The notes: a model not told the origin generated them from the letters alone. Counted from the first letter of the stretch, positions 1 to 18,643 are shown. The stretch is 64,000 nucleotides of DNA from an uncultured Gemmatimonadota bacterium (GCA_964465015.1 CAYXHP010000148.1:2072-66071); one strand, 5' to 3'. A program made the numbers and translations.

Positions 1-566
1 AGCGCGTCCTGGACGCCCTCCGAGGGCTCGACGGGGCGCGTGACATCCCGCTCCAGCGCCTCGCGAGGCACAGGGAAGCCCTCCCGGTGCAGGTGGGCCA
101 GGAAGGCGTCCCACAGCGTCGGGCCCGCCAGGCGGCGCTCCAGCCGCGCGCGGGCCTCGCTCCCTTCCGGATAGCGCTCCAGGATCAGGGGCCGCTTGAG
201 CCCGAGCGCGAACTCGAGCTCCCGGAACTGGAACGACTCCAGCCCGCTGGCCTGGTCCAGCCGGTCCCGGAAGGTGAGGAACTCGCGCGGGGTCATCGTC
301 TCCAGGATGTCGATCTGTCCCACCATGACCTTGAGGATGGTGAGGATCCGCTTCATGGCGTGGAGCGCCACGGGCAGGTCGTCGCGGTCCAGGATCGCCC
401 GCACGTAGTCCAGCTCGTGCAGCACCTCCTTGAACCACAGCTCGTACACCTGGTGGATGACGATGAACAACATCTCGTCGTGCTCCCCGGCCCGCAGGCG
501 CTGCAGCGAGAGGAGCTCGTCCAGGTGCAGGTAGTCGGCGTAGGTCAGGTAGCGTTCCGGCTCCAC
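1..566 (-). CDS. kynA: Tryptophan 2,3-dioxygenase, N-terminal part. The gene runs off the window start. GTG start at 566..564, 1 nt after the stop of the upstream gene.
   Basis: Reverse-strand translation gives VEPERYLTYADYLHLDELLSLQRLRAGEHDEMLFIVIHQVYELWFKEVLHEL...TMTPREFLTFRDRLDQASGLESFQFRELEFALGLK. This matches the conserved HDEMLFI.QHQ..ELW and TP.EF..FRD..SGFQS.QFR..E blocks of bacterial tryptophan 2,3-dioxygenase. The + strand ORFs here (87..740 and others) are low-complexity antisense frames. Confidence 0.85.
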   Translation of the reverse strand, partial: MEPERYLTYADYLHLDELLSLQRLRAGEHDEMLFIVIHQVYELWFKEVLHELDYVRAILDRDDLPVALHAMKRILTILKVMVGQIDILETMTPREFLTFRDRLDQASGLESFQFRELEFALGLKRPLILERYPEGSEARARLERRLAGPTLWDAFLAHLHREGFPVPREALERDVTRPVEPSEGVQDA

Positions 567-567
567 G

Positions 568-2847
568 TCAGTAGCCCCATTCGAAGCGAGGCGTGTAGTC
601 GTCCAGCGTCGAGTACGGCTTCGGCCACGGCAGGTCGTAGCCGAGCGCGTACGCGGCGTGGCGCGTCCAGTAAGGCTCCCACAGGTGGGCCCGGGCCAGG
701 CAGCACAGGTCCGCCCGGCCGGCGGCCAGGATCGTGTTGACGTCCATGTAGGAGGAGATGTTGCCCACCGCCATGGTGTGGATGCCGACCTCGTGCCGGA
801 TCCGGTCGGCGAAGGGCGTCTGGAACTGGCGCCCGTAGCGAGGCTTCTGCCATGGCACCGTCTGGCCGGCCGAGACGTCCACGATGTCGCCGCCCGCCTC
901 CGCGACCCGGCGTGCCACCTCCACCGCGTCGTCGGCGGTCATCCCCCCCGGGGCCCAGTCCACCGCGGAGATCCGGACCGAGATCGGCCGCTCCTCGGGC
1001 CACACCGCCCGCACGGCGCTCAGCACCTCGAGCGGGTAGCGCATCCGGTTCTCGAGCTCGCCCCCGTACTCGTCCTCGCGCTCGTTGGTGAGGGGGGAGA
1101 TGAAGCTGGCCAGGAGGTAGCCGTGCGCGAAGTGGATCTCTAGGAGGTCGAAGCCGGCCTCCACGGCCATCTCGGCCGCGCGGACGTACTCGCGCAGCAC
1201 CCGGTCCATGTCGGCTCGGTCCATGGGTCGGGGGACCGGATTCTCGGGCTTCCAGGGAAGGGGAGACGGGGCCAGCACCTCCCAGCCGTCCTCCTCCAGC
1301 GGCTCCACGTCCCCTTCCCAGGAGAGCTTCGTCGCGCCCTTGCGGCCCGCGTGCCCGAGCTGGAGGCCGATCCTGGCCGAGCTCCGGTCGTGCACGAAGT
1401 CGACGATCCGCTTCCACGCGGGAACGTGCTCGGGGAGGTACATGCCCGTGCACCCCGGCGAGATCCGTCCCTGGGCGCTGACGTTCGTCATCTCGCTCAT
1501 CACGAGGCCCGCGCCGCCCACCGCCCGGCTCCCCAGGTGCACCAGGTGCCAGTCGTCGGGTGTCCCGTCCACGGCCGAGTACTGGCACATGGCCGACACG
1601 ACCACGCGGTTCTCGAGCACGAGACCTCGAAGCCGGAACGGGGTGAACATCGGCGGGGGCGGCGGATCCGTCCGGATGGCGACGCCCGACTGCTCCGCGG
1701 CCCGGCCGGCGAACCAGCGGTCCACATCCGCGGTGAATGTCGGGTCGCGCATCCGCAGGTCCTCGTGCGTGATGCGGAGGCTCCGGGTGAGGAGCCCGAA
1801 AGCGAACTGGAGCGGCTCGTCGTCCATGTAGCGCTCGGTGCCCTCGAACCATTCCAGGCTGGCGCGGGCGGCGCGCTGCAGGCTCTCGACGTCGGGCCGC
1901 CGCGCCTCCTCGTAGGCCGGGAGCGCACGGCACGGCTGGTTCCCGTGCGCGGTCAGCGCATCCCGGAGCGCGATGGCATCGATCATGGCGATGCGCGTAC
2001 CCGAGCCCACCGAGAAGTGGGCGGTGTGCGCCGCGTCCCCGATGAGCACCGTGTTCCCGTGCCACCATCGACCGGTGCGCAGGGTCGGAAAGTGCCGCCA
2101 GATGGAGCGGTTCCGGATGAGCGGGTGCCCCTCGAGCTCCTCCTCGAACAGGTCGGCGCAGAAGGCGGCGGCCGCCTCTTCGTCGTCCTCCGGCAGGCCC
2201 GTGGCCGCCCACGTCTCATCGCGCGCCTCGACGATGAAGGTCGAGTGCGCCTTCCCGTCCCTGGTCGGCTCGTACTGGTAGGCGTGCACGCGCCACAGTC
2301 CGTGCCGGTCCTCGCGGAAGTAGAACGTGAAGGCCCGGAAGGGACGCGTCGTGCCGAGCCACACGAAGCGGTTGGGCCGGAGGTCGATGGTCGGCTGGTA
2401 ACGCTCCGGGTGGAGCCCGCGGACCGTGCTGTTCACCCCGTCGGCCGCCACGAGGAGGTCGGCCTCCTCCCACGGCGAGAGATCGGTGACGTCGACGCCG
2501 TGCCGGAGGTCCACGCCCAGCTCGCGAGCCCGGGCCGAGAGGATCTCGAGCAGGGTCGAGCGGGCGAGGCCCGAGAAGCCGTGTCCGGTGGAGCGCAGGC
2601 ACGCCCCCCGGTAGTGGATGTCGATGTCGTCCCAGTGGTGGAAGTGGCGGGTGATCTCCGCGTAGCTGGTCGGGTCGGCGGCGGCGATCTCCTCCAGCGT
2701 GGCATCCGAGAACACGACCCCGAAGCCGTAGGTGGCGCCGGGCGGGTTGCGCTCCAGCACCGTGACCTCGTGCGTCTCGTCCTGGAGCCGCATGAGGATG
2801 GAGAAGAAGAGCCCGGCGGGCCCGCCCCCGACGCAGACGATCCTCAC
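568..2847 (-). CDS. Bifunctional flavoprotein with an N-terminal FAD-dependent aromatic monooxygenase domain and a C-terminal Old Yellow Enzyme-type FMN reductase. Family of 2-aminobenzoyl-CoA monooxygenase/reductase and salicylyl-CoA 5-hydroxylase. GTG start at 2847..2845.
   Basis: The N-terminal part reads [15 protein letters not shown] (GxGxxG Rossmann) ...[16 protein letters not shown]. The C-terminal part reads [13 protein letters not shown]...[32 protein letters not shown]...VRISAVDW, an OYE TIM-barrel. It is about 760 aa. The 1252-aa ORF on the track is this gene plus upstream out-of-frame junk. GTGA overlap with the upstream ACAD stop. Confidence 0.85.
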
Positions 2848-4154
2848 GCCGGCTCCCCGGCCGCGGCGCCGCCGGCGCGCGGGCTCACCCGTTTGGCCCC
2901 GGTACCGTCCGGGCCCGTCTCCTCGGCCCCGCCGCCACGCCGGGTCGCCTCCACCAGGTGGCCCGCGATGATGAGGCGCTGGATCTCCGTGGTCCCCTCG
3001 TAGATCCGTAGCGCCCGCACCGACCGGTACAGCCGGTCCACCGGGTGGTCGGCCAGGACGCCGCGCCCTCCCAGGATCTGGACGGCTTCGTCCACGATCC
3101 TCTGCGCCGCCTCGGTCGCGTGCGCCTTGGCCATGGCCGACTCGACCGTGGTCCGCTCGGCGCCGCCGTCCCGCTCCCACGCGGCCCGGTAGGTGAGGAG
3201 ACGCGCGGCCGTCAGCTCGGTGGACATGCGGGCGAGCTTGTCCTGGACGAGCTGGAAATCGGCCAGCGGTCGACCGAACTGGCGGCGGGAGACGGCGTGG
3301 AAGAGGGCTTCCCCCAGCGCCCGTGCCGCCATGCCGCAGGCGGCGGCCGCCACCGTGGGTCGAAGCCGGTCCAACGTGGCGAGGCCGATCCCGAGCCCCC
3401 GGCCCTCCTCGCCGATGCGGGCCGCGGCCGGGACCCGGCAGCCGTCGAGCTCGATCTCGCCGAGCGGGTGAGGGGAGGAGAGGACCTGCGGCCCGGCGAA
3501 CCGGAGGCCGGGGGCCCCGGCCGGGACCACGAAGGCCGACACGCCCCGCCGCCCCGCCCCCGGGTCCGTGGCCGCGAACACCACGTAGAAGTCCGCGATC
3601 CCCGCGTTCGAGATGAACGCCTTGCGGCCGTCCAGGACGTAGTCGTCCCCGTCGCGAACGGCCCGCGTGGTCAGCGAGGCCACGTCGGACCCCGCCTCCG
3701 GCTCGGTCATGGCGAAGGCGCCCATGGCCCGCCCCCGCACCGCCGGTCCCAGCCACCGCTGGCGCGGCTCGCACTCGCCGGCCAGCACCAGGGGAGTCGC
3801 GGCCAGTCCCTGGAGGGCGAACACCGCGTCGGCGAGCGGGGAGGCGCCGGCGAGCGCCTCGCGCACGAGGCAGCAGGCCCGGAAATCCTGCGCCGCGATC
3901 GGACCCAGCCAGCCCCCGTCGCCGAGGAGCTCGAGCAGGTCGCGGGCCTCGCGGCGCGCCGCCGCGTCGTCGGCCGGCTCGGGCCTCGACGCGATCTCGC
4001 GCGCGCACATCCTTGATGCCTTCCCGGCCAGCTCGAGGTGACGCTTCTCCAGGAAGGCGCGTACCGGGGATGGGTCGGGGATCGCCGTTTCGCTCCCGAT
4101 GCCGGTGCCCCCTCCCACGTTCGCCGGCCGGCCGCGGAGCTTGTCGTCGGTCAT
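2844..4154 (-). CDS. Acyl-CoA dehydrogenase
   Basis: Motifs [23 protein letters not shown] and [16 protein letters not shown]. The true ATG is at 4154..4152 (MTDDKLRG...) and overlaps the stop of the upstream hydratase as ATGA. The track ORF extends upstream as Arg/Pro junk. Confidence 0.85.
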
Positions 4155-4981
4155 TCGAACCGCGTCTCCCGCTTCTCCACGAAGGCCTCGTAGGACTCGC
4201 GGAAGTTGGGATTCTGCATGCACACGGCCTGGACCTTGGCCTCCGCTTCGAGCGCGCTGTCCAGGTCCAGGATCGCTTCCCGGTTGAGCGCGTCCTTGGT
4301 GACCTCGAGGGCGAAGGAGGGCCCACGGGCGAGCTTCTCGGCCAGCTCGCGCGCTTCGCCGACCACCCGGTCGGCCGGGACGACGCGGTTGTAGAGGCCG
4401 ATGCGGTGCGCCTCGGCGGCGTCGATGAAATCGCCGGTCATGAGGAGCTCGGTGGCCCGGCCCAGGCCCACGATCCGCGGCAGGAGCCACGAGGCGCCCA
4501 TGTCGGCCCCGGAGAGCCCAACCCGGGTGAACAGGAAGGCGATCTTCGCGGTCTCGGACGCGATGCGGAGGTCGCACGCCGACGCGATGACCGCCCCGGC
4601 CCCGGCCACGGTCCCGTTCAGGGCGGCCACGACCGGCCGCCGGCAGGCCCGGATCGAGCCGATGAGGTCGCAGGTGAGGCGCGTGAAGGCGAGGAGGCCC
4701 TGGAAGTCACGCTCGAACAGGCGTCCGATGATGTCCTCCACGTCCCCTCCGGAGCAGAAGCCCCGGCCGCGGCCGGTGAGGAGGACGGACCGCACGCCGG
4801 GCTCCGTGTCCAGCGCCCGGAAGGCGTCCCGCAGCTCCTCGTACACCTCGAACGTGAGGGCGTTGAGCCGCTCGGGGCGATTCAGCGTGATCGTGGCCAC
4901 CGAGGTGGCCTCGTCGTGCTCGTACAGGAAGGACGTGGGTTCGATGGGCATCCGGCTCTCCGGTTCAGGATCCGTCCCCAT
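4151..4981 (-). CDS. Enoyl-CoA hydratase/isomerase (crotonase fold). Alternative start at 4951 (MPIEPTSF...).
   Basis: [12 protein letters not shown]...[12 protein letters not shown] (oxyanion-hole motif) ...[12 protein letters not shown]...[17 protein letters not shown]. Confidence 0.85.
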
Positions 4982-5420
4982 GGGTGGTCCGGGGCGGTGG
5001 CGCGGTGGCGGCTTCCCCGGGCGGCAGCACGGCGGTGGCCTCGATCTCGATCACCGCTCCCTCGTCGACGAGGCCGGTGACCTCCACCACGGCCATGGCC
5101 GGGTAGTGCCGGCCCATGAGCTCGCGCCACGTGGCTCCGAGCGGCCCGAGGGAGGCCCGGTATTCGTCGAGGTCCGTCACGTAGACGGTCATGCGTCCGA
5201 TGTGGGTCGGCCCTCCGCCGGCCTCGCCGACGACCGCCAGGACGTGGGACAGGGCACCGCGAAACTGGGCGGCGAGCCCTTCGCCGCGGATGCGGCCGTC
5301 CGCATCCCGGTCCGTCTGTCCCGCCACGAACACGAGGCGTCCGCCCGCCGGGGCCACCAGACCGTTGTTCCAGCCGCGGGGCTCCCCGAGCGCCTCCGGG
5401 TTCACGATCCGGAAGCTCAC
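4965..5420 (-). CDS. ridA: RidA/YjgF/TdcF-family protein (reactive-intermediate enamine/imine deaminase). GTG start at 5420.
   Basis: VSFRIVNPEALGEPRGWNNGLVAPAGGRLVFVAGQTDRDADGRI...MTVYVTDLDEY...PAMAVVEVTGLVDEGAVIEIEATAVL. It has a ~19 aa Pro/Ala-rich C-terminal tail. GTGA overlap with the stop of the upstream SDR. Confidence 0.8.
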   Translation of the reverse strand: MSFRIVNPEALGEPRGWNNGLVAPAGGRLVFVAGQTDRDADGRIRGEGLAAQFRGALSHVLAVVGEAGGGPTHIGRMTVYVTDLDEYRASLGPLGATWRELMGRHYPAMAVVEVTGLVDEGAVIEIEATAVLPPGEAATAPPPRTTHGDGS

Positions 5421-6235
5421 GCGAGGAGCTCTCCGCCGTCCATCACGATCGCCTGGCCGTTGATGCCCCGGGCGCCCTCGCCGCACAGCCACAGCGCGGC
5501 GTCGGCCACCTCCTCCGGCTCGATGAGGCGGCCCTGGGGGTTCATGGCCACGATCGCCTGCATCGCCTCCTCCTGGGAACGTCCCGTCTTGAGGGCGACG
5601 TTTCGGGCCGAGGCCAACGTCATCTCCGTGCTCACGTAGCCCGGACACAGCGCGTTGACCGTGACGCCCCGGCCGGCCACCTCGGCGGCCGCGCAGCGCG
5701 CGAGGCCGAGCACCGCGTGCTTGGAAGCGGCGTACGCCGCGGTGTAGCGGGCCCCGGTCAGGCCGGCCACGGAGGCCACGTACACCAGCCGTCCCCAGCC
5801 GCGCTCGGCCATGGAGGGCAGGAAGGCCCGCGTGCACAGGAAGGAGCCGGTCGCGTTCACCTCCAGCACCCGGCGCCACTCCTCGAGCTCCAGGCTGCGG
5901 ATCGGCGCGGCGGAGGCGATCCCGGCGGCATGGACCAGGATGTCGGCCGGACCGAGCTCCGCCCCGGTTCTCTCGGCCAGGGCGCCGACCTGGACGGCGT
6001 CCGACACGTCGCACGGGACCGGGGTCGCGCGCCCCCCGGCGGCGCGGATCTCCTCCGCCACGGCCTCGATCTCGCTCGCGCTGCGGGCGCTCACCACGAC
6101 CGCCGCTCCCGCCGCGGCCAGCCGACGTGCGGCGGCCGCCCCGATCCCCCGTCCCCCACCGGTGACGACCGCGATGCGGCCCTCGAGCGGGGTGGCCGCG
6201 CCGCGGCCCGCTTCGGCGGCGCCACGGGCCGTCAC
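5417..6235 (-). CDS. SDR-family oxidoreductase (FabG-like), canonical active site. GTG start at 6235.
   Basis: Motifs RIAVVTGGGRGIGAA, NATGSF and YAASKHAV (YxxxK) ...CPGYVST. GTGA overlap with the creatininase-family stop. Confidence 0.85.
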   Translation of the reverse strand: MTARGAAEAGRGAATPLEGRIAVVTGGGRGIGAAAARRLAAAGAAVVVSARSASEIEAVAEEIRAAGGRATPVPCDVSDAVQVGALAERTGAELGPADILVHAAGIASAAPIRSLELEEWRRVLEVNATGSFLCTRAFLPSMAERGWGRLVYVASVAGLTGARYTAAYAASKHAVLGLARCAAAEVAGRGVTVNALCPGYVSTEMTLASARNVALKTGRSQEEAMQAIVAMNPQGRLIEPEEVADAALWLCGEGARGINGQAIVMDGGELLA

Positions 6236-7005
6236 GCCGTCCTCCCGGAGCGGCCGGGGAGCGCCTCCAGGACCGCCTCGGCCAGGATCTCGCCCAGGAC
6301 CCGGATCGTCTCGCTTCCCTCCCCGGCCGAGGCGTCGGCCGGGGAGCCGCAGTACGCCCGGTCCATGCCGGCCTCCTCGAAGCTGGTCTTCCCCTGCCCG
6401 ATGGCCGCGGAGAGCGAGACCGGGACCGGGGAGAGGCTCCGCCGCACCTCCTCGCGGACCAGCTCGGGACGGGCGGCCAGCACCACCGACGCCTCGAAGC
6501 GGCCCGCGTGGCACTCCCCGCTCCGGAACTCCTCCCCCAGGCGTTCGGCCCAGCGGCGCGTGGCGAGGTCGGGGAAGACCGGGACCAGGAGGCCCCGCGC
6601 CTCGATCTCCCGCGCCGCCTCGCGCAGCGAGCCCCGGTGCCCGGGATCCACGTGGGGGCTCGCCAGTCCCAGGCACCCGACCCCGTGCCGACCCAGGCTG
6701 GCGGCCACGTCCACCACGAGCGCGGTCACGGTCTCGGGACGCACGTCGATCGTCCCCGGGAAGGCGGCGGCGAAGCCCGCCGCCGTGTACGGAAGGGTGG
6801 GGAGGAGGAGCACCTCGAGGCCCCTGTCGGACAGGCGCCGGGCCGCGTCCGCGACCATGGCCTCCGCCATGATCCCGTCCGTGGCCAGGGGGAGGTGTGG
6901 TCCGTGCGCCTCGAGGGCGCCCACGGGGAGCAGGGCGACGGTGACCTCCGGGTCGAGCGACCCCAGCTCCTCCCAGGTGCACCCGGACAGCTCGCGTACG
7001 GCCAT
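6232..7005 (-). CDS. Creatininase / creatinine-amidohydrolase-family metal hydrolase. ATG at 7005; alternative GTG at 7053.
   Basis: ALLPVGALEAHGPHLPLATD...HGVGCLGLASPHVDPGHRG...ECHAGRFE. First gene of the minus-strand operon. Confidence 0.75.
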   Translation of the reverse strand: MAVRELSGCTWEELGSLDPEVTVALLPVGALEAHGPHLPLATDGIMAEAMVADAARRLSDRGLEVLLLPTLPYTAAGFAAAFPGTIDVRPETVTALVVDVAASLGRHGVGCLGLASPHVDPGHRGSLREAAREIEARGLLVPVFPDLATRRWAERLGEEFRSGECHAGRFEASVVLAARPELVREEVRRSLSPVPVSLSAAIGQGKTSFEEAGMDRAYCGSPADASAGEGSETIRVLGEILAEAVLEALPGRSGRTA

Positions 7006-7097
7006 GGTCCTCCGGTCGGGGGGAGCCTCCTGGACGGCCCACCGGGCCGCCACCGTCGAGTGTTGAGTAATGTTAGCGTGAGGGCGACATTCCGCAC
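7006..7097. promoter_or_regulatory. Divergent intergenic region with an AT-rich core (gagtgttgagtaatgttagcgtga) between the catabolic operon and the aryl-CoA ligase gene.
   Basis: It is 92 nt, the only AT-rich patch in a ~70% GC neighbourhood, and is flanked by divergent start codons. Confidence 0.4.
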
Positions 7098-8774
7098 ATG
7101 CCTCGATCCGAGACCGACGCGCTGGACGCCACCCGCTCCGTGGACGTGCCCTTGCGTCCGCCCGAGCGGTTCAACATCGCCGACTACTTCCTGGATGACC
7201 GCGTGCGGGAGGGCCTCGGCGAGCGCACCGCGCTGATCACCGACCGCGGAACCTACAGCTACGCGGACGTCCAGGCCCTGGCCAACCGCTTCGCCCACGT
7301 CCTGGTGCGGGCCGGCGTCGAGCCCGAGCAGCGCGTCCTCCTGGCGCTTCCAGACGGCGCCGAGCTCGTGGCGGCGCTGTTCGCCGTACTCAAGGTCGGG
7401 GCGGTGGCGGCGCTGGTGAATCCCGGGCTGTCGGCCGAGGAGATCGCGTACTTCCTGGGCTACACGCGGGCCGTGGTCCTGGTGACGCACGCCGGGAGCG
7501 TGGACACGTTCCGGGAAGCCCGCCGCCGCGCCCGGGCCGTCGACCCCGACTTCCTCAAGGAGGTGCTCGTCGTCGGGGACCCGGCCTTCGACGCGATCCT
7601 CGCGGAGATGCCCGACGCCTTCGAGAGCTTCCCCACCCACCGTGATGACGCGGCCATCTGGCTGTTCTCGGGCGGGACGACGGGGCGGCCCAAGGCCGCG
7701 GTCCAGACCCACACCTCCTACGCCAACGCTTCGGCCTGCTACGGCCGGCACGTGGTGGGCTACGGACCCGAAGACCTGACGATCTCGGTCCCCAAGCTCT
7801 ACTTCGGCTACGCGATGGGGGCCAACCTGTTCTTCCCGTTCGCCGTCGGCGCCACCTCCGTCCTGTTCCCCGAGCGCTGCACCTCGGAGCGGCTGTTCGA
7901 CCTCATCGAGCACCATCGGCCCACCGTGCTGGTGAACGTGCCCACCATGGTGAACCACCTGGTGAGCGACCCCGGCGCGCCCGGGCGCGATCTCTCCTCC
8001 CTCCGGGTTTCCACCTCGGCCGGCGAGGCGCTCCCGGTGGACCTCCACCGTCGCTGGGACGAGCTGTTCGGCGTCGAGCTCCTGGACGGTCTCGGCACGG
8101 CCGAGATGTGGCACATCTTCCTCTCGAACCGGCGGGGCGATGTCCGGCCGGGGACGTTGGGAAAGGCGGTGCCGGGCTACGAGATCCGCGTGTGCGACGA
8201 AGAAGGGCGGGAGCTGCCGGCGGGCGATACGGGGTGGCTGTGGGTGCGCGGAAACTCGCGCGCCATCGGCTACTGGCAGCGCATGGAGGAGTCCCGCCGC
8301 GCCTTCCGCGGCGAGTGGTACGCCTCCAGCGACATGGTCCGGCTGGACGAGGACGGCTACGTGGTCTACTGCGGACGCGGTGACGACATGCTCAAGGTCT
8401 CGGGAAAGTGGCTGTCCCCCAAGGAGGTGGAGGACTGCCTCGTGGAGCATTCCCGGGTGCGCGAGGCGGTGGTCGTCGGCGCGACGAACGCGGCGGGACT
8501 CACGAAGCCGTACGCGTTCGTGGTGCCGGCGCCGCCGGTCCCGGAGACCGAGGGCGGCGCGGCGGGATCCGGTGGGGGCCAGACCGGCGGGGCATCGGCG
8601 GCGGACTCGGCGACGGACCTCGCGGCCGTCCTGCAGGCCTGGGTGAAGGAGCGGCTCGCCCCCTACAAGTACCCGCGCCGCGTGCTCCTGGTGGACGACC
8701 TCCCCCGCACGCACCTGGGAAAGGTGGACCGGGGGGAGATGCGCCGGGTCGCCGAGGCGCTGGGCGAGGACTGA
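7098..8774 (+). CDS. AMP-forming aryl-CoA ligase of the benzoate-CoA ligase / 2-aminobenzoate-CoA ligase family
   Basis: Motifs NIADYFLDDRVREGLGERTALI, LFSGGTTGRPKAAVQTH, YFGYAMGAN, GDMLKVSGKWLSPKEVE and YKYPRRV...LPRTHLGK. Confidence 0.85.
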   Translation: MPRSETDALDATRSVDVPLRPPERFNIADYFLDDRVREGLGERTALITDRGTYSYADVQALANRFAHVLVRAGVEPEQRVLLALPDGAELVAALFAVLKVGAVAALVNPGLSAEEIAYFLGYTRAVVLVTHAGSVDTFREARRRARAVDPDFLKEVLVVGDPAFDAILAEMPDAFESFPTHRDDAAIWLFSGGTTGRPKAAVQTHTSYANASACYGRHVVGYGPEDLTISVPKLYFGYAMGANLFFPFAVGATSVLFPERCTSERLFDLIEHHRPTVLVNVPTMVNHLVSDPGAPGRDLSSLRVSTSAGEALPVDLHRRWDELFGVELLDGLGTAEMWHIFLSNRRGDVRPGTLGKAVPGYEIRVCDEEGRELPAGDTGWLWVRGNSRAIGYWQRMEESRRAFRGEWYASSDMVRLDEDGYVVYCGRGDDMLKVSGKWLSPKEVEDCLVEHSRVREAVVVGATNAAGLTKPYAFVVPAPPVPETEGGAAGSGGGQTGGASAADSATDLAAVLQAWVKERLAPYKYPRRVLLVDDLPRTHLGKVDRGEMRRVAEALGED

Positions 8775-8871: not shown

Positions 8872-9822
8872 CTATGCGGCTCCGACCAGCTCCCGCACCG
8901 GCGTCATCCCGCCGTGGGCGTCGGGGACCTCCCCGTGCACGACGCCCATGAAGCGCCGCTGGATCTCGCGGGTCACCGGACCCATGCTCCCCGCACCGAT
9001 CTCGATCCGGTCCACGCTGCGGACCGGCGTCACCTCCGCGGCGGTTCCGGTGAAGAAGAGCTCGTCGGCCGAGTAGAGGGTCTCGCGTGGGACCGGGCCC
9101 TCCCGCACCGGGATGCCGAGGTCGTCCGCCAGCGTGAGGATGGCGTCCCGGGTGATGCCCCGGAGCGAGGTGCCGTCCAGCGCCGGCGTGACGAGGGTTC
9201 CGTTCCGCACCAGGAACAGGTTCTGGCCGCTCCCCTCGCTCACCAGTCCGCCCGGCCCGAGCGCGATCCCCTCCGAGAAGCCGTTGGCGATCGCCTCGAG
9301 CTTGATGAGGGTGGCGTTGGTGTAGTGACCGGCGGCCTTGGCGGCCGAGGGGAAGGTGTTGGGAGCCGGCCGGTGCCAGCTCGACACGCACACGTCGACC
9401 CCGCGCTCCAGAGCTCCCTCGCCCAGGTAGGTCCCCCACGGCCACACGGGGATCCACGTCTCGATGGGGCTGGCGCGCGTGTCGAGTCCGGCCGCCCCGT
9501 ACCCCCGGAGCACCATGGGCCGGATGTAGCAGGAGGCGAGGCCGTTGCGGGCCACCACCGCGCCGCACGCCTCCTCGAGTGTCCCGGGCGGGTGCTCGGG
9601 CGCCATGTGATAGACCCGGGCCGAGTCGTACAGGCGGCGAATGTGCTCGGGGAGGCGGAAGATGGCCGGGCCGTCCGCGGTCTCGTAGCAGCGGATTCCC
9701 TCGAACACGGAGGCTCCGAACTGCACGGCGCTCGACAGCAGGTGGACGGTGGCGTCCTCCCAGCGGACGAACTCACCATCCTTCCACATCCACTCGGTCT
9801 CGGTGAACTGCGACGCAGGCAT
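8872..9822 (-). CDS. ilvE: Branched-chain amino acid aminotransferase. Probable start at 9789 (MWKDGEFV...).
   Basis: WMWKDGEFVRWEDATVHLLSSAVQFGASVFEGIRCY...GAAKAAGHYTNATL...LFFTGTAAEVTPV. Confidence 0.85.
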   Translation of the reverse strand: MPASQFTETEWMWKDGEFVRWEDATVHLLSSAVQFGASVFEGIRCYETADGPAIFRLPEHIRRLYDSARVYHMAPEHPPGTLEEACGAVVARNGLASCYIRPMVLRGYGAAGLDTRASPIETWIPVWPWGTYLGEGALERGVDVCVSSWHRPAPNTFPSAAKAAGHYTNATLIKLEAIANGFSEGIALGPGGLVSEGSGQNLFLVRNGTLVTPALDGTSLRGITRDAILTLADDLGIPVREGPVPRETLYSADELFFTGTAAEVTPVRSVDRIEIGAGSMGPVTREIQRRFMGVVHGEVPDAHGGMTPVRELVGAA

Positions 9823-9860
9823 CGTGTCTCTCCGCTCGGTCGTGGCCGCCCGACGGCGGC

Positions 9861-10637
9861 CTATAGAAGGGACCGGATCCAGCCGCCGTCCACGGCGATC
9901 GAGCTCCCGGTGATGTAGGAAGCCCGCTCCGAGGCCAGGAAGGCGACCAGCGCCGCCAGCTCGCGCGGCTCACCGATTCGGCCCATGGGGATCTCGCGGT
10001 TCCAGTGCTCGAACGCATCCTCCGCCCCGTCCGATGTACCGGCCAGCTCCTCCAGGCGCGCCGTGCGCGTGTAGCCGGGCATCACGTTGTTCACCGTGAT
10101 CCCCTGCGCCGCCACGTCGTTGGCCAGCGTGCGCGCCAGCCCGGTCACCGCGGCCCGCAGGCTGTTGGACAGGATGAGGTTCTGGACCGGTTGCTTCACC
10201 GCGATGGACGTGATGGTGACGATCCGACCCCAGCGTCGCCCCTTCATGTCCGGGAGGACGCGCCGAACCATCTCGACCACGCTCTCGAGCAGGAGCCGCT
10301 CGGCGGCGCGCCACGTCTCGAGGTCGTGGGTCTCGAACGACCCGGCGGGGGGGCCGCCCGTGTTCGTGACCAGGATCTCCACCGGTCCGAAGGCCCGTTC
10401 GGCCCCCGAGACCGCCGCGTCGATGCCCGTGGTGGTGGAGAGATCGGCGGCCACGGCGGCCACCTCGGCACCCGTCTCGGAGGCGATCGCCGCCCGGGCC
10501 TCCTCCAGCCGCTCCTCCCCGCGGGCGCACAGCACCACCCGCGCGCCCTCGGCCGCCAGCTCGGCCGCCACCGCCCGGCCCAGGCCGCTGCTCGACCCGC
10601 CCACGAGCGCCACCCGTCCGGTCAGTCCCAGGTCCAT
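9861..10637 (-). CDS. SDR-fold oxidoreductase with a non-canonical active site
   Basis: It has the VALVGGSSSGLGRA Rossmann motif and NTGG. The YxxxK position reads S-N-S-L-R (ITSIAVKQPVQNLILSNSLRAAV), so the catalytic Tyr/Lys appear replaced by Ser/Arg. Confidence 0.75.
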   Translation of the reverse strand: MDLGLTGRVALVGGSSSGLGRAVAAELAAEGARVVLCARGEERLEEARAAIASETGAEVAAVAADLSTTTGIDAAVSGAERAFGPVEILVTNTGGPPAGSFETHDLETWRAAERLLLESVVEMVRRVLPDMKGRRWGRIVTITSIAVKQPVQNLILSNSLRAAVTGLARTLANDVAAQGITVNNVMPGYTRTARLEELAGTSDGAEDAFEHWNREIPMGRIGEPRELAALVAFLASERASYITGSSIAVDGGWIRSLL

Positions 10638-10657
10638 CGCTCCTCCCCGGTGCTCGA

Positions 10658-11035
10658 TCAGTCCTCGTCGTGGAAGTAGTCGTCGGTCCCGTCCAGCCAG
10701 TCCTGCCTGGGTGGACTGAACACGTCCACGTCCAGCGTGTCCTCGAGTGCCTCGGCGCGGTGGGGCAGGTGCGAGGGGATGTGCAGCACCTCACCCGACC
10801 GGACTACGACCTCCTCCTCACCGTCCTCGCCGAGCCAGAAGTGGAGCGCGCCCTCCAGAATGTAGGTGAGTTGCTCGTTGTCGTGGGAGTGCTTCGGGAC
10901 GATGGCGCCGCGGTCCAGGTAGACCTGGGCGAGCATCATGCGCTCGCCGGTCACCAGCCGCCGGCTGATCACGTCCGTGACCGGCTCCCGGGCCATGTCG
11001 TCCCAGCGGAAATGCCGGGCCTTCGCCTCGTTCAT
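10658..11035 (-). CDS. Cupin-domain protein
   Basis: IVPKHSHDNEQLTYILEG...GEVLHIPSHLPHRAEA, a two-His cupin motif pair. Confidence 0.7.
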   Translation of the reverse strand: MNEAKARHFRWDDMAREPVTDVISRRLVTGERMMLAQVYLDRGAIVPKHSHDNEQLTYILEGALHFWLGEDGEEEVVVRSGEVLHIPSHLPHRAEALEDTLDVDVFSPPRQDWLDGTDDYFHDED

Positions 11036-11196
11036 GTCGTGGCTCCTCGCGTGGGTGGACTCCAGCTCAATGGGCGGCCGGAGGGGTCGTCGGGCAAGGG
11101 AGGAGCCGTGCGACAGGCGCCCGGGCCGGCGCGGTCCACCCGTCGGCTCGGAACGATGGCCCTATGGCCCTCGCCGGTCGGGGTGCGGGGGGGCGC

Positions 11197-11997
11197 TCAG
11201 GTCGAGTCGCTCTCCTCCCAGTATCGGGTGCTCGTGGCGGGAGCCCAGCGGGCGGGATCGAACAGGGCGGGGTCCAGAGTGTCCGGGGCCCGGATGTCCG
11301 AGTACTCCTCGGTCTGGAACAGCCGGCCGTCCACCCGCAGGTCCAGGTGCGTCTCTACCCAGCCGTCGCCGAGGGGCTGCCAACCGCCGATCGTCGCGTC
11401 CAGGAGCCTTCCGTCGCCGAGAGGCTGGATGTCGCGCACCGCCAGGAGCCGGTCCGCGTCGACCCAGAACTGGGGGGACGTCGTGTCCCCCGCCGCGGCT
11501 CCCACGATCCACACCGGACGGCCCTCGAGCGTGTCCCGCCGGGCCAAGGACAGGTCGATCCCCAGGCTGTCCAGCACGTGGGCCGAGCGCTCGACCGGCT
11601 GCAGGTAGACATCCGAGAGCAGCACGGCGAGCGGATTGGTGTCGGAGGCCGAGTCTGCCAGCTGGCCGGACCTGAACCCGTACCGCTGGCCGTCCACGTA
11701 GAGAACCCCGTTGCCCTCGGCCAGGGGCTCCATGTCGATGCGGAGCTTCCCGAGCGCCAGCGCCTCGTGCCAGAGCGTCGTGTCCTGGACCCCGGGCTTC
11801 GGGTATCGGATGGTCCGCTGCGTGAACGTCACGTAGGGAGGCCAGTGCCCCTGGTAGAGGTCGTGCATGGCCTGGAGCACCTCGTGGCCGCTGCGGAAGC
11901 TCCGGCCGGGGGGCGACCCGTCATCCGAGCCGCAGGCCGAGGTCACGGCGAGCGCGGCGGCGACGAGGACGGACGCGGCGGCGGCGGGACGATGCAT
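11197..11997 (-). CDS. Hypothetical lipoprotein
   Basis: Signal peptide followed by LAVTSAC|GSDD (lipobox-like). No recognisable catalytic motif. Confidence 0.55.
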   Translation of the reverse strand: MHRPAAAASVLVAAALAVTSACGSDDGSPPGRSFRSGHEVLQAMHDLYQGHWPPYVTFTQRTIRYPKPGVQDTTLWHEALALGKLRIDMEPLAEGNGVLYVDGQRYGFRSGQLADSASDTNPLAVLLSDVYLQPVERSAHVLDSLGIDLSLARRDTLEGRPVWIVGAAAGDTTSPQFWVDADRLLAVRDIQPLGDGRLLDATIGGWQPLGDGWVETHLDLRVDGRLFQTEEYSDIRAPDTLDPALFDPARWAPATSTRYWEESDST

Positions 11998-18491: not shown

Positions 18492-18643
18492 CCCGCAGCG
18501 GGGGGGAGCCCCGCCGCCCACCGTCCCTCGGTGGGGCCGGCGGAGCTCCCGTCGTCCGACCCGCTTCTCCTCCCGTTCGTCCCGCCCCGCCGGCCGCCCG
18601 ACGCGACGTTGCAACCTACCCCGCCCGGCTCGCGTCCAAGGGG

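What the first reader, a model, noticed from the sequence alone, without database searches (positions are those of the whole stretch)
1..8774. Tryptophan 2,3-dioxygenase in one operon with an aminobenzoyl-CoA monooxygenase/reductase-type flavoenzyme and beta-oxidation-like genes
The minus-strand operon is creatininase-family, SDR, RidA, enoyl-CoA hydratase, acyl-CoA dehydrogenase, FAD-monooxygenase/OYE fusion, then kynA. Every junction is a 4-nt GTGA/ATGA overlap or a 1-nt gap, so this is one translationally coupled unit.

The FAD-monooxygenase/OYE fusion is the hallmark enzyme of the CoA-dependent aerobic 2-aminobenzoate pathway first described in Azoarcus evansii. There the aryl-CoA is hydroxylated and reduced to a non-aromatic 2-amino-5-oxocyclohex-1-ene-carboxyl-CoA. 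It is also the enzyme type of the salicylyl-CoA route in Streptomyces.

Here it is directly coupled to tryptophan 2,3-dioxygenase, and an aryl-CoA ligase is transcribed divergently. This implies a route Trp -> (formyl)kynurenine -> anthranilate -> 2-aminobenzoyl-CoA -> dearomatised CoA ester -> beta-oxidation-like breakdown, rather than the usual anthranilate dioxygenase/catechol route. Coupling kynA to this CoA pathway, together with RidA, SDR and creatininase-family genes, is not a textbook arrangement. The later steps of the aminobenzoyl-CoA pathway are incompletely assigned, and these genes are candidates for them.
Basis: partly seen in the sequence, partly recalled or inferred. Interest (0 to 1): 0.78.

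Follow-up and report, generated by a model that had tools for sequence, protein, structure and literature searches.

The report
Tryptophan-to-anthranoyl-CoA degradation operon, Gemmatimonadota
This is a compact operon from a soil or marine Gemmatimonadales bacterium that very probably burns tryptophan via kynurenine, anthranilate and a CoA-thioester ring-reduction route; the route is already known, but three of the parts used here are unusual.

Summary
Seven tightly packed minus-strand genes run creatininase-family, SDR, Rid-family, enoyl-CoA hydratase, acyl-CoA dehydrogenase, FAD-monooxygenase/OYE fusion, kynA. A benzoate-CoA-ligase-family gene lies divergently.

An identical contig (L001) extends past the window. 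There kynA is full length and overlaps by 4 nt a very divergent kynureninase-like gene. A convergent msrA then ends the operon.

The nine-gene layout is conserved in Gemmatimonadota at 60-91% fusion identity. SDR, Rid, hydratase, dehydrogenase and ligase accompany the fusion gene in most phyla, so they are normal members of aminobenzoyl-CoA (abm) clusters. kynA and/or kynU have joined such clusters independently in at least six other lineages, including Maricaulis (kynA-kynB-kynU-fusion).

The logic is already in Cupriavidus reconstructions.

Specific to this lineage:
- a kynureninase family missed by TIGR01814;
- a benzoate-CoA-ligase-type ligase replacing the AbmG type;
- a creatininase-family hydrolase, possibly the missing formylkynurenine formamidase (unproven).

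The cluster's Rid proteins universally lack the RidA catalytic arginine. Verdict: new variant of a known kind, moderate interest.

The parts
1..566 (-). kynA, tryptophan 2,3-dioxygenase. These are the first 188 of 262 codons, starting at GTG 564-566. The 3' end lies beyond the window start (L001 6267-7055).
   Evidence: PF03301 E=4e-40. TIGR03036 positions 5-186 of 264. The full-length copy in the identical contig L001 scores PF03301 E=1.5e-63 and TIGR03036 297 bits, below the 390 cut-off.
568..2847 (-). 759-aa fusion flavoenzyme: an N-terminal FAD aromatic monooxygenase and a C-terminal OYE/FMN ene-reductase. It belongs to the 2-aminobenzoyl-CoA monooxygenase/reductase (AbmA) / salicylyl-CoA 5-hydroxylase family.
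   Evidence: PF01494 + PF00724. NF006101 1098 bits against a cut-off of 1078. The OYE half matches PDB ene-reductases at E=1e-96 and the N-terminal half matches VioD at 1e-45. 52% identical to the fusion enzyme next to the verified anthranilate-CoA ligase of Arthrobacter pAL1.
2844..4154 (-). Acyl-CoA dehydrogenase (436 aa if it starts at ATG 4154, with an ATGA overlap on the hydratase stop).
   Evidence: PF00441/PF02770/PF02771. Best PDB hits are uncharacterised ACADs 5idu/5jsc at E=1e-94. Linked to the fusion gene in 43 of 60 long loci.
4151..4951 (-). Crotonase-family enzyme (266 aa, PRK08258 type). Candidate for hydration or ring-opening hydrolysis of the alicyclic CoA ester.
   Evidence: PF00378 E=9e-61 and NF006107 373 bits against a cut-off of 330. 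PDB 3g64 at 6e-72, then PaaG 4fzw_C. The start at ATG 4951 follows from the 266-aa homologues and the GGAGAG spacer.
4965..5420 (-). Rid (YjgF/RidA) family protein of an arginine-less subfamily. [quoted passage not shown]
   Evidence: PF01042 E=2e-15. TIGR00004 scores only 38 bits against a cut-off of 106. The motif is HYPAMAVVEV, with Met where RidA has Arg105. Across 115 cluster-linked Rid genes that column is Met 105, Val 7, Thr 2, Ile 1, never Arg.
5417..6235 (-). Short-chain dehydrogenase/reductase (272 aa), like 3-hydroxybutyrate dehydrogenase or FabG. Candidate keto/hydroxy oxidoreductase of the lower pathway.
   Evidence: PF00106 E=2e-59. NF009093 240 bits, below the cut-off of 258. 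Linked to the fusion gene in 47 of 60 long loci.
6232..7005 (-). Creatininase-family binuclear metal amidohydrolase (257 aa from ATG 7005). It is the first gene of the operon and is specific to this lineage. Proposed N-formylkynurenine formamidase (inferred).
   Evidence: PF02633 E=4e-51. Below the cut-offs of MftE (98 against 172) and creatininase (67 against 235). The positions aligned to the creatininase metal and catalytic residues (E48, H50, D59, H134, H182, E187) are invariant (the assignment to creatininase residues is from memory).
7006..7097 (.). 92-bp divergent intergenic region between the operon and the ligase gene. Presumed to hold promoters and an operator.
   Evidence: Sequence. 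About 45 nt next to the ligase start are conserved with the 91% relative L003 but not with L002. No sigma-70 consensus match.
7098..8774 (+). Aryl-CoA ligase of the benzoate-CoA ligase family (558 aa). Proposed anthranilate-CoA ligase.
   Evidence: TIGR02262 457 bits against a cut-off of 375. PDB benzoate-CoA ligase 2v7b at 6e-111 and the anthranilate-CoA ligase 4wv3 at 2e-96. Only 32% identical to the verified Arthrobacter anthranilate-CoA ligase, and 31-37% to the ligases of proteobacterial clusters.

Best explanation
This is a catabolic operon of a Gemmatimonadales bacterium. It converts L-tryptophan to central metabolites through anthranilate and the aerobic 2-aminobenzoyl-CoA ('hybrid') pathway.

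Proposed steps:
1. KynA oxidises Trp to N-formylkynurenine. The family assignment is shown; the activity is inferred.
2. The creatininase-family metallo-amidohydrolase removes the formyl group. This is inferred and is the weakest step, at about 0.45.
3. The divergent kynureninase-like PLP enzyme, encoded just beyond the window, splits kynurenine into anthranilate and alanine. This is inferred, at about 0.75.
4. The divergently transcribed benzoate-CoA-ligase-type enzyme makes 2-aminobenzoyl-CoA.
5. [quoted passage not shown] This chemistry is known for the Azoarcus enzyme.
6. The arginine-less Rid protein hydrolyses the enamine/imine to 2,5-dioxocyclohexanecarboxyl-CoA and ammonia.
7. The crotonase-family enzyme, the SDR and the acyl-CoA dehydrogenase open and oxidise the ring in a beta-oxidation-like way. 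The order of these last steps is unknown.

Tight coupling of all eight minus-strand genes implies co-expression.
For: Gene families and coupling:
- establish the families and the junctions.
- The identical contig L001 shows full-length kynA. A 4-nt-overlapping PLP gene follows, then a convergent msrA.
- The best solved relative of that PLP gene is Pseudomonas kynureninase 1qz9: E=9e-7 with one sequence, and E=4e-18 over the full length with a family profile. Cysteine desulfurases score 5e-5 or worse.
- The motifs that align with those of 1qz9 (YKY, DAYH, TGWF, LRLGPAP) are conserved in the family.

Conservation:
- The same nine-gene layout occurs in Gemmatimonadota, including Longimicrobiales, at 60-91% fusion identity.
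- It also occurs in 17 of 19 informative metagenome contigs.

Independent linkage of kyn genes to fusion-gene clusters:
- Maricaulis: kynA-kynB-kynU-fusion.
- Tepidifontimicrobium: kynA-kynU-fusion.
- Limimaricola: kynA after the ligase.
- Aggregatilineales: kynU between the ligase and Rid.
- Two more loci have kynU within 10 kb.

Core genes and literature:
- Rid, hydratase, ligase, SDR and ACAD accompany the fusion gene in 43-50 of 60 long loci across phyla.
- Anthraniloyl-CoA and a C7H8O4 (cyclohexanedione-carboxyl) CoA ester were detected in anthranilate-grown Arthrobacter (PMC3534580).
- The abm cluster is genetically required for anthranilate use in Cupriavidus (PMC6221969).
- kyn -> abm funnelling is drawn for Cupriavidus metallidurans (PMC8879955).

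Evidence for the formamidase role:
- No KynB (cyclase) homologue is in the operon or in the 64-kb window.
- On the fusion-protein tree, the creatininase gene and kynA/kynU appear on the same branch. The kyn-less members are nested inside that clade.
- In L097 the creatininase gene stays with the ligase and kynA, although the lower pathway is replaced.
- About 50 clusters with the same core genes lack a creatininase gene.
Against: - There are no experimental data for any protein of this lineage.
- NCBI names the fusion family 'salicylyl-CoA 5-hydroxylase/oxidoreductase'. I could not compare it with the Azoarcus AbmA or Streptomyces SdgC sequences.
- kynA is below the TIGR03036 cut-off. The kynureninase-like protein fails TIGR01814 (1 of 10 members, E=0.0016) and is below the Pfam KYNU_C cut-off in this organism.
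- The ligase is of the benzoate-CoA ligase type. It is only 32% identical to a verified anthranilate-CoA ligase.
- The creatininase gene persists in five or six clusters with no kynA/kynU within 10 kb: L016, L021/L158, L024, L165 and L049. The co-gain with kynA/kynU is essentially one evolutionary event.
- A canonical KynB elsewhere in the genome cannot be excluded.
- No thiolase or 3-hydroxyacyl-CoA dehydrogenase of the HBD type is in the operon, so the lower pathway is not complete in cis.
Confidence: 0.72

Rival explanations
1. The cluster degrades salicylate (or another 2-substituted benzoate) through salicylyl-CoA and gentisyl-CoA, as in Streptomyces sp. WA46. On this reading kynA/kynU are passengers.
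For: The NCBIfam equivalog NF006101 that the fusion protein passes is named for salicylyl-CoA 5-hydroxylase. The ligase is of the benzoate-CoA ligase type, not the AbmG type.
Against: - kynA starts 1 nt after the fusion gene's stop codon, and the kynureninase-like gene overlaps the kynA stop by 4 nt. Together they make anthranilate.
- A Rid-family gene, implying amine removal, accompanies the fusion gene in 50 of 60 long loci.
- No bicupin gentisate dioxygenase, thioesterase or second adenylating enzyme is in the operon.
- kyn genes joined such clusters independently in several phyla.
- JGI annotates the same proteins as anthraniloyl-CoA monooxygenase.
Confidence: 0.05
2. The pathway is as proposed, but the creatininase-family enzyme belongs to the lower pathway. 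It would hydrolyse the vinylogous amide (deamination), or open the cyclic beta-dicarbonyl ring as the family member IolN does. Formylkynurenine would then be deformylated by an enzyme encoded elsewhere, or spontaneously.
For: - The gene is kept in clusters that have no kynA/kynU within 10 kb: L016, L021/L158, L024, L165. In Planctomycetota locus L049 it lies next to the fusion and ligase genes only.
- There is a weak NCBIfam match to the C-C hydrolase IolN, E=7e-5.
- It is always the first gene, ahead of SDR and Rid.
Against: - About 50 clusters in other phyla run the same four core genes with no creatininase homologue.
- On the tree it appears together with kynA/kynU, and the kyn-less members are nested, which points to secondary loss.
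- In L097 it stays with the ligase and kynA while the fusion, ECH, ACAD and Rid genes are absent.
- The equivalent Maricaulis cluster carries a canonical KynB instead.
Confidence: 0.3
3. The genes are biosynthetic. Kynurenine-derived anthranilate would be activated to anthraniloyl-CoA for a quinolone- or aurachin-type secondary metabolite, or kynA/kynU would serve NAD synthesis.
For: The ligase resembles the aurachin anthranilate-CoA ligase structure 4wv3 at E=2e-96. From general knowledge, the kynurenine pathway feeds quinolone synthesis in Pseudomonas.
Against: - No PKS, KAS-III/PqsD or NRPS genes are nearby. Neither are kynurenine 3-monooxygenase, 3-hydroxyanthranilate dioxygenase or quinolinate genes.
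- The dearomatising enzyme plus hydratase, dehydrogenase and SDR point to breakdown.
- Flanking genes are housekeeping: msrA, EF-P, an ECF sigma factor and a two-component system.
Confidence: 0.03

Closest known systems
Azoarcus evansii abm clusters (aerobic 2-aminobenzoate pathway; Schuhle et al. 2001, known to me through reviews PMC4539516 and PMC8388817, because the primary paper was not readable)
   Same: An aryl-CoA ligase, the FAD/FMN 2-aminobenzoyl-CoA monooxygenase/reductase fusion, and beta-oxidation-type genes lie in one cluster. [quoted passage not shown]
   Different: - Here the ligase is of the benzoate-CoA ligase family. It is 31-37% identical to the ligases of proteobacterial clusters.
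- No MarR regulator or ABC transporter is present.
- kynA, a kynureninase-like gene and a creatininase-family gene are inside the operon.
- Direct sequence comparison with AbmA was not possible.
Cupriavidus kyn + abm catabolic reconstructions and the genetically verified abm cluster of Cupriavidus sp. SHE (PMC8879955, PMC6221969)
   Same: The metabolic logic is the same: tryptophan or indole goes to anthranilate, then through abmG to the 2-aminobenzoyl-CoA central pathway.
   Different: There kyn and abm are listed as separate peripheral and central modules. The Cupriavidus locus I fetched (L067, 13.2 kb, with about 0.9 kb after the fusion gene) shows no kynA on the 10 kb it covers upstream of the fusion gene. 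Here all the genes are fused into one operon that uses non-canonical parts.
Maricaulis salignorans DSM 16077 locus (L083), with the Tepidifontimicrobium (L071), Limimaricola (L050) and Aggregatilineales (L027) loci
   Same: Kynurenine-pathway genes are physically joined to a fusion-gene cluster on the same strand.
   Different: - These loci have a canonical cyclase-type KynB (Maricaulis only) and canonical KynU (Pfam KYNU_C at E=1e-36 in Maricaulis and 8e-10 in Tepidifontimicrobium; Aggregatilineales 56% identical to the Maricaulis KynU).
- Their ligases are of the AbmG type.
- They carry MarR or TetR regulators, a thioesterase or ABC transporters.
- The gene orders differ, which indicates independent assembly.
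- None has a creatininase gene.
Arthrobacter sp. Rue61a plasmid pAL1 anthranilate module (PMC3534580; L170)
   Same: An experimentally verified anthranilate-CoA ligase lies next to a fusion enzyme that is 52% identical to this one. A Rid-family gene is adjacent.
   Different: The companion genes are an acyl-CoA thioesterase, a small cupin, an FAH-family hydrolase and PaaX regulators, not hydratase, ACAD and SDR. The ligase is only 32% identical.
Streptomyces sp. WA46 sdg salicylate pathway (SdgC salicylyl-CoA 5-hydroxylase; recalled from the literature, not tested)
   Same: The bifunctional flavoenzyme family is the same, and NCBI's family model is named after this enzyme.
   Different: That pathway releases gentisate for ring cleavage by gentisate 1,2-dioxygenase. 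No such gene is here, and the operon makes anthranilate, not salicylate.
Bacterial anthranilate branch of the kynurenine pathway (KynA/KynB/KynU)
   Same: A TDO gene is directly followed by a kynureninase-clade PLP enzyme.
   Different: KynB (PF04199) is absent. The kynureninase is so divergent that TIGR01814 and Pfam miss it in this organism. A creatininase-family hydrolase is the only candidate formamidase in cis.

Membership tests
2-aminobenzoyl-CoA monooxygenase/reductase (AbmA) / NF006101 family | A single polypeptide of about 760-800 aa with an N-terminal FAD aromatic-hydroxylase domain and a C-terminal OYE/FMN domain. | tested here: met
   PF01494 covers residues 128-324 and PF00724 covers 400-733. 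The GGGPAG dinucleotide motif is invariant in alignment A2.
2-aminobenzoyl-CoA monooxygenase/reductase (AbmA) / NF006101 family | The protein scores above the curated family cut-off. | tested here: met
   NF006101 gives 1098.1 bits against a cut-off of 1078 over model positions 1-747 of 768. The margin is narrow, and the model does not separate the amino- and hydroxy-substrate enzymes.
2-aminobenzoyl-CoA monooxygenase/reductase (AbmA) / NF006101 family | The protein groups with Azoarcus AbmA rather than Streptomyces SdgC in a phylogeny. | not tested
   Neither reference sequence could be obtained. The primary paper PMC95408 is not held. As a proxy, the protein is 52% identical to the pAL1 enzyme that partners a verified anthranilate-CoA ligase.
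2-aminobenzoyl-CoA monooxygenase/reductase (AbmA) / NF006101 family | [quoted passage not shown] | not testable with these tools
   This needs an enzyme assay.
abm-type gene cluster (aerobic aminobenzoyl-CoA pathway) | An aryl-CoA ligase and beta-oxidation-type genes (hydratase, acyl-CoA dehydrogenase) lie adjacent to the fusion gene. | tested here: met
   for this window. The same companions are found in 43-50 of 60 long loci from many phyla.
Sdg-type salicylyl-CoA/gentisate pathway | Gentisate 1,2-dioxygenase and a thioesterase or two-step salicylate activation in the cluster (features recalled from the literature). | tested here: not met
   None of the nine genes belongs to these families. 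The only cupin nearby is a 125-aa monocupin in a separate convergent operon.
Tryptophan 2,3-dioxygenase (KynA) | A match to the TDO family model. | tested here: met
   PF03301 gives 215.7 bits for the full-length protein in L001. The stricter equivalog TIGR03036 gives 297 bits, below its cut-off of 390.7. So the protein is a divergent member.
Kynureninase (KynU, TIGR01814 / Pfam KYNU_C) | The protein passes the curated kynureninase models. | tested here: not met
   TIGR01814 is matched by 1 of 10 family members, at E=0.0016. PF22580 gives 21 bits against a cut-off of 27 in this organism. The Palauibacter orthologue carries a precomputed PF22580 hit.
Kynureninase (KynU, TIGR01814 / Pfam KYNU_C) | The closest solved relative is kynureninase over the full length, and the catalytic-site motifs are conserved. 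| tested here: met
   The family profile against the PDB gives 1qz9 at E=4e-18 (positions 10-392 against 14-399), human KYNU at 2e-5, and desulfurases at 5e-5 or worse. YKY, DAYH, TGWF and LRLGPAP are invariant or nearly so. Which residues these motifs supply to the active site (PLP lysine, aspartate, substrate arginine) is from memory.
Kynurenine formamidase KynB (cyclase family PF04199) | A cyclase-family gene accompanies kynA/kynU. | tested here: not met
   tblastn with the Maricaulis KynB finds nothing in the window or in any creatininase-type locus. The rest of the genome could not be searched.
Creatininase family (PF02633) | The family model is matched and the binuclear-metal ligands and catalytic His are present. 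| tested here: met
   PF02633 gives 174 bits. E48, H50, D59, H134, H182 and E187 are invariant in 11 orthologues. Mapping them to the creatininase residues is from memory of the Pseudomonas putida enzyme.
Creatininase proper (TIGR04448) / MftE (TIGR03964) | The protein passes an equivalog cut-off. | tested here: not met
   Creatininase gives 67 bits against a cut-off of 235. MftE gives 97.6 against 172. The protein is therefore an uncharacterised subfamily.
Archetypal RidA imine deaminase (TIGR00004) | The equivalog score is passed and the substrate-carboxylate-binding Arg105 is present. | tested here: not met
   The score is 38 bits against a cut-off of 106. Met replaces Arg here and in 105 of 115 cluster-linked homologues, and none has Arg.
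Benzoate-CoA ligase family (TIGR02262) | The protein passes the subfamily cut-off. | tested here: met
   457 bits against a cut-off of 375. The best PDB hit is benzoate-CoA ligase 2v7b at 6e-111. Substrate preference is not testable here.

The most novel reading that the evidence does not exclude
The creatininase-family metallohydrolase that opens this operon is a previously unrecognised, non-orthologous type of N-formylkynurenine (aryl-)formamidase that replaces KynB in Gemmatimonadota. It is paired with a kynureninase clade that current models miss. [quoted passage not shown]
Probability: 0.35. Interest if true: 0.6.

Novelty: new variant of a known kind. Interest (0 to 1): 0.45.

Why it matters
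To my knowledge, the steps of the aerobic 2-aminobenzoyl-CoA pathway after the dearomatised ester have never been assigned to enzymes, although the pathway was described in the early 1990s. This analysis shows that four genes travel with the key flavoenzyme across many phyla: an Arg-less Rid protein, a PRK08258-type crotonase, an SDR and an ACAD. Together they define a minimal candidate set.

The analysis also shows that tryptophan is a recurrent natural source of the anthranilate fed into this pathway. It flags two annotation gaps. One is a kynureninase clade missed by TIGR01814. The other is a family name ('salicylyl-CoA 5-hydroxylase') that probably mislabels most members. It also offers a testable candidate for a new kind of kynurenine formamidase.

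None of this overturns current understanding. It extends a known pathway into a poorly studied phylum.

Tried and rejected
- **Actinomycete origin.** I assumed this from the 72% GC content. It is rejected: the closest proteins and genomes are Gemmatimonadota.
- **Primary Azoarcus paper.** I tried to read PMC95408, but it is not held. Identity to the pAL1 enzyme and gene context served as proxies.
- **Wrong accessions for pAL1.** AM286278 and NC_018533 are not held. NC_018532 is the wrong plasmid. NC_009453 worked.
- **Clean co-occurrence of creatininase with kynA/kynU.** I expected the creatininase gene to occur if and only if kynA/kynU did. This is only partly borne out: five or six clusters keep the gene without kyn genes nearby. 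The tree suggests secondary loss, but this is essentially one gain event. The metagenome scan returned only close orthologues (51-62% identity), so it could not show the gene beside kynA/kynU outside abm clusters, apart from L097.
- **Regulatory signals.** The promoter/terminator scan found no promoter match and one terminator-like site inside a gene, no more than chance. The inverted-repeat search of the intergenic region found only a trivial palindrome over the start codon. Rfam found nothing in the 64 kb.
- **Flanking genes beyond 12 kb.** These are EF-P, an amidase, an ECF sigma and anti-sigma pair, DUF5916 and a LytTR two-component system. They are unrelated.
- **Structure prediction.** I did not use it. 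The kynureninase-like gene lies outside the window, so it is not accepted by the tool. A model of the creatininase fold would not discriminate between substrates.
- **Literature searches.** Searches for kynureninase together with aminobenzoyl-CoA, for creatininase together with formylkynurenine, and for Gemmatimonadota together with kynurenine found nothing relevant. A gene-symbol search was swamped by papers on kynurenic acid.

Full report
**What is in the sequence.**

The first 9 kb of the window is 70-78% G+C. Raw ORF lists are therefore useless. A codon-position GC plot and a start/stop scan give seven consecutive minus-strand genes and one divergent plus-strand gene. Pfam and NCBIfam identify them as follows.

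| Coordinates | Strand | Gene | Key evidence |
|---|---|---|---|
| 1..566 | - | kynA | runs off the window start |
| 568..2847 | - | FAD-monooxygenase/OYE fusion, 759 aa | NF006101, 1098 bits against a cut-off of 1078 |
| 2844..4154 | - | acyl-CoA dehydrogenase | Pfam ACAD domains |
| 4151..4951 | - | PRK08258-type crotonase | NF006107, 373 bits against a cut-off of 330 |
| 4965..5420 | - | Rid-family protein | PF01042 |
| 5417..6235 | - | SDR | PF00106 |
| 6232..7005 | - | creatininase-family hydrolase | PF02633 |
| 7098..8774 | + | benzoate-CoA-ligase-family enzyme | TIGR02262, 457 bits against a cut-off of 375 |

Four junctions are GTGA or ATGA overlaps, and one is a 1-nt gap. The Rid-to-crotonase junction is different. 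It is a 13-nt spacer with a GGAGAG ribosome-binding site, provided the crotonase starts at ATG 4951, as its 266-aa orthologues do. Alignment with orthologues moves the creatininase-family start to ATG 7005.

**What lies beyond the window.**

A look-up of the fusion protein found a Logan contig, L001, that is identical to the window over the 700 bases I aligned. It continues 2.6 kb further. In it kynA is complete (262 aa; PF03301 216 bits; TIGR03036 297 bits, below the cut-off). The kynA stop overlaps by 4 nt the start of a 459-aa fold-type-I PLP enzyme. A convergent msrA then closes the unit.

The PLP enzyme fails the curated kynureninase models. Its best solved relative is nevertheless Pseudomonas fluorescens kynureninase, at E=9e-7. 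A profile of ten orthologues matches that structure end to end at E=4e-18. Human kynureninase scores 2e-5 and cysteine desulfurases 5e-5 or worse. The motifs that align with the active-site region of kynureninase (YKY, DAYH, TGWF, LRLG) are conserved. Their assignment to the PLP lysine, the aspartate and the substrate arginine is from memory.

I therefore read this gene as a very divergent kynureninase. No NAD-branch genes are present.

**Who owns it.**

The nearest fusion proteins (68-91% identity) come from Gemmatimonadota. JGI calls them anthraniloyl-CoA monooxygenase, while NCBI calls them salicylyl-CoA 5-hydroxylase/oxidoreductase. The best genome match is an uncultured Gemmatimonadales MAG at 89%.

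**Comparative genomics.**

I fetched 80 genome loci with a fusion-protein alignment, and 80 metagenome loci with a creatininase-family alignment. I then scored all operon proteins against them with tblastn.

- **Nine-gene layout.** The order is divergent ligase, then creatininase-SDR-Rid-crotonase-ACAD-fusion-kynA-kynU-like. It is conserved in Gemmatimonadota, including Longimicrobiales, at 60-91% fusion identity. It is also present in 17 of 19 metagenome contigs that are long enough to tell.
- **Core genes.** Among 60 genome loci of at least 15 kb from Alpha- and Betaproteobacteria, Chloroflexota, Eremiobacterota, Actinomycetota, Rokubacteria and others, the fusion gene is accompanied by a Rid gene in 50, a crotonase in 49, a ligase in 48, an SDR in 47 and an ACAD in 43. 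These are regular members of this cluster type, as RefSeq annotation of the Paracoccus and Phyllobacterium plasmids already shows.
- **kyn genes in unrelated lineages.** They have joined such clusters independently, with different gene orders, in several places:
  - Maricaulis salignorans: kynA, cyclase-type kynB, canonical kynU, then the fusion gene;
  - Ca. Tepidifontimicrobium: kynA-kynU-fusion;
  - Limimaricola pyoseonensis: kynA after the ligase;
  - an Aggregatilineales MAG: canonical kynU between the ligase and Rid;
  - two further loci with kynU within 10 kb.

  In all, 13 of 80 genome loci carry a kyn gene.

This recurrent linkage is the strongest available evidence that the family's substrate in these clusters is anthranilate, and that tryptophan is a natural source of it.

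**Literature.**

- The aerobic 2-aminobenzoyl-CoA pathway of Azoarcus evansii is summarised as ligase, then monooxygenase/reductase, then 'enzymes of beta-oxidation' (PMC4539516).
- In Arthrobacter sp. Rue61a two anthranilate-CoA ligases were verified. Anthranilate-grown cells contain anthraniloyl-CoA, a C7H7NO3-CoA, and a C7H8O4-CoA interpreted as cyclohexanedione-carboxyl-CoA (PMC3534580). That is the product expected from hydrolytic deamination of the dearomatised ester.
- A 2-aminobenzoyl-CoA cluster was shown by proteomics and genetics to be vital for anthranilate use during indole degradation in Cupriavidus (PMC6221969).
- The Cupriavidus metallidurans reconstruction lists tryptophan (kyn genes), anthranilate (abmG) and the abm central pathway together (PMC8879955).

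I found no paper that describes the operon-level fusion, anything on Gemmatimonadota, or a link between the creatininase family and formylkynurenine.

**Lineage-specific features.**

1. **The ligase.** It is of the benzoate-CoA ligase type. Its PDB matches are 2v7b at 6e-111 and the anthranilate-CoA ligase 4wv3 at 2e-96. It is only 31-37% identical to the ligases of the proteobacterial and Arthrobacter clusters. This is a non-orthologous recruitment.

2. **The kynureninase.** It belongs to a clade that current models miss.

3. **The creatininase-family gene.** It occurs only in this clade, plus one Planctomycetota contig.
   - The positions aligned to the metal and catalytic residues are invariant.
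   - It fails the creatininase and MftE equivalogs.
   - The operon and the whole 64-kb window lack a KynB homologue, whereas the Maricaulis cluster has one.
   - About 50 clusters with the same four core genes need no creatininase gene.
   - On a neighbour-joining tree of fusion proteins, the creatininase gene and kynA/kynU appear on the same branch. The few kyn-less members (L016, L021/L158, L024) are nested among kyn-bearing ones.
   - In contig L097 the gene stays beside the ligase and kynA. The lower pathway there is replaced by an IMPase-family gene, a thioesterase and a Rieske oxygenase.
   - From general knowledge, another member of this family (archaeal ArfB) hydrolyses a formamide.

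   I therefore propose that it is the N-formylkynurenine formamidase. The evidence is circumstantial, and I give it roughly 45%. The gain is essentially one evolutionary event. Five or six clusters retain the gene without nearby kyn genes. A lower-pathway role in deamination, or in IolN-like ring opening, is not excluded.

4. **The 'RidA'.** It is not an archetypal RidA. Its TIGR00004 score is 38 against a cut-off of 106. The arginine that binds the substrate carboxylate in RidA is methionine here (HYPAMAVVEV). In all 115 cluster-linked Rid genes I collected, that position is Met, Val, Thr or Ile, and never Arg. This fits a substrate whose carboxyl group is tied up as a CoA thioester. It makes this Rid subfamily the best candidate for the enamine/imine hydrolase of the pathway.

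**Mechanism proposed.**

The fusion-enzyme product is known chemistry from Azoarcus, and the family assignments are shown here. Everything else is inferred.

1. Trp goes to N-formylkynurenine (KynA).
2. N-formylkynurenine goes to kynurenine (creatininase-family hydrolase?).
3. Kynurenine goes to anthranilate plus alanine (divergent KynU).
4. Anthranilate goes to 2-aminobenzoyl-CoA (ligase).
5. [quoted passage not shown]
6. That ester goes to 2,5-dioxocyclohexanecarboxyl-CoA plus NH3 (Rid).
7. The crotonase, SDR and ACAD then open and oxidise the ring. Their order is unknown.

Thiolase and further beta-oxidation enzymes must be supplied from elsewhere.

**Rivals.**

- A salicylate/gentisyl-CoA role is supported only by NCBI's family name. 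The in-operon anthranilate-forming genes, the Rid gene, and the absence of gentisate dioxygenase and thioesterase all contradict it.
- A biosynthetic or NAD-supply role is contradicted by the gene content and by the housekeeping flanks.

**Verdict.**

It is a new variant of a known pathway, not a new kind of system. RidA and SDR are ordinary companions of this enzyme, and the Trp-to-abm logic is already published. What gives it moderate interest:

- the compact all-in-one operon in an under-studied phylum;
- the unrecognised kynureninase clade;
- the arginine-less Rid subfamily;
- the candidate new formamidase.

Noticed in passing
window 4965..5420; Rid genes in L001-L168: Every Rid-family gene linked to a fusion-gene cluster (115 sequences from many phyla) has Met, Val, Thr or Ile at the position of the RidA catalytic Arg105, and never Arg. 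This defines a distinct arginine-less Rid subfamily tied to this pathway.
   Followed up: yes
L001 7052-8431 (just beyond the window start); orthologues in L002-L155: A kynureninase-like PLP enzyme clade is not recognised by TIGR01814 and is mostly below the Pfam KYNU_C cut-off. In this organism it carries a Pro/Arg/Asp-rich N-terminal extension of about 50 aa. That extension may be real, or it may reflect a start codon called too early.
   Followed up: partly
L097 1-6000: This metagenome contig keeps ligase-kynA on one strand and the creatininase-family gene on the other. The creatininase gene is followed by an inositol-monophosphatase-family gene, a 4HBT thioesterase and a Rieske ring-hydroxylating oxygenase, instead of SDR/Rid/ECH/ACAD/fusion. 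It may be a different fate for anthraniloyl-CoA.
   Followed up: partly
L170 22136-29049 (Arthrobacter pAL1); L007 7369-14403 (Streptantibioticus cattleyicolor pSCAT): Actinobacterial clusters pair the fusion enzyme and ligase with an acyl-CoA thioesterase, a Rid gene and PaaX. pAL1 also has a small cupin and an FAH-family hydrolase. They have no hydratase, ACAD or SDR. This suggests a second downstream route, probably through a free hydroxylated aromatic acid.
   Followed up: partly
window 8872..11997 (-): A four-gene operon converges on the ligase gene: a 266-aa protein with no Pfam match, a 125-aa cupin, an SDR and an IlvE-type class IV aminotransferase. It is conserved next to the cluster only in the 89-91% relatives (L003, L004, L014). 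Whether it relates to the pathway is unknown.
   Followed up: partly
window 7098..8774, residues about 478-510 of the ligase: The C-terminal domain of the ligase has a Gly/Ala/Ser-rich low-complexity insertion (PETEGGAAGSGGGQTGGASAADSATD). In the pairwise alignment with the Arthrobacter ligase this stretch falls largely opposite gaps.
   Followed up: no
L049 129-6104 (Planctomycetota contig): The only creatininase-family homologue outside the Gemmatimonadota-type clade (43% identity) lies divergent to a fusion gene. A benzoate-CoA-ligase-type ligase is beyond it and a methylenetetrahydrofolate reductase gene is behind it. No Rid, ECH, ACAD or kyn genes are on the 6.5-kb contig.
   Followed up: no
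family-wide: Public names conflict: NCBI uses 'bifunctional salicylyl-CoA 5-hydroxylase/oxidoreductase' and JGI uses 'anthraniloyl-CoA monooxygenase'. The near-universal Rid gene and the recurrent kyn linkage suggest that most members act on the amino compound.
   Followed up: partly
window 7053..7097 and L003 5879-5925: About 45 nt immediately upstream of the ligase start codon (CATGTGCGnAATGTCGCCCTCnCGCTAnnATTACTCAAC on the minus strand) are almost identical between the window and the 91% relative. They are not conserved in the 71% relative L002. This may be a promoter or operator.
   Followed up: no
window 18053..21454; L002 15489-17771: A large DUF5916 protein lies within 3-10 kb of the cluster in both this genome and Ca. 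Palauibacter. This is probably just conserved synteny.
   Followed up: no
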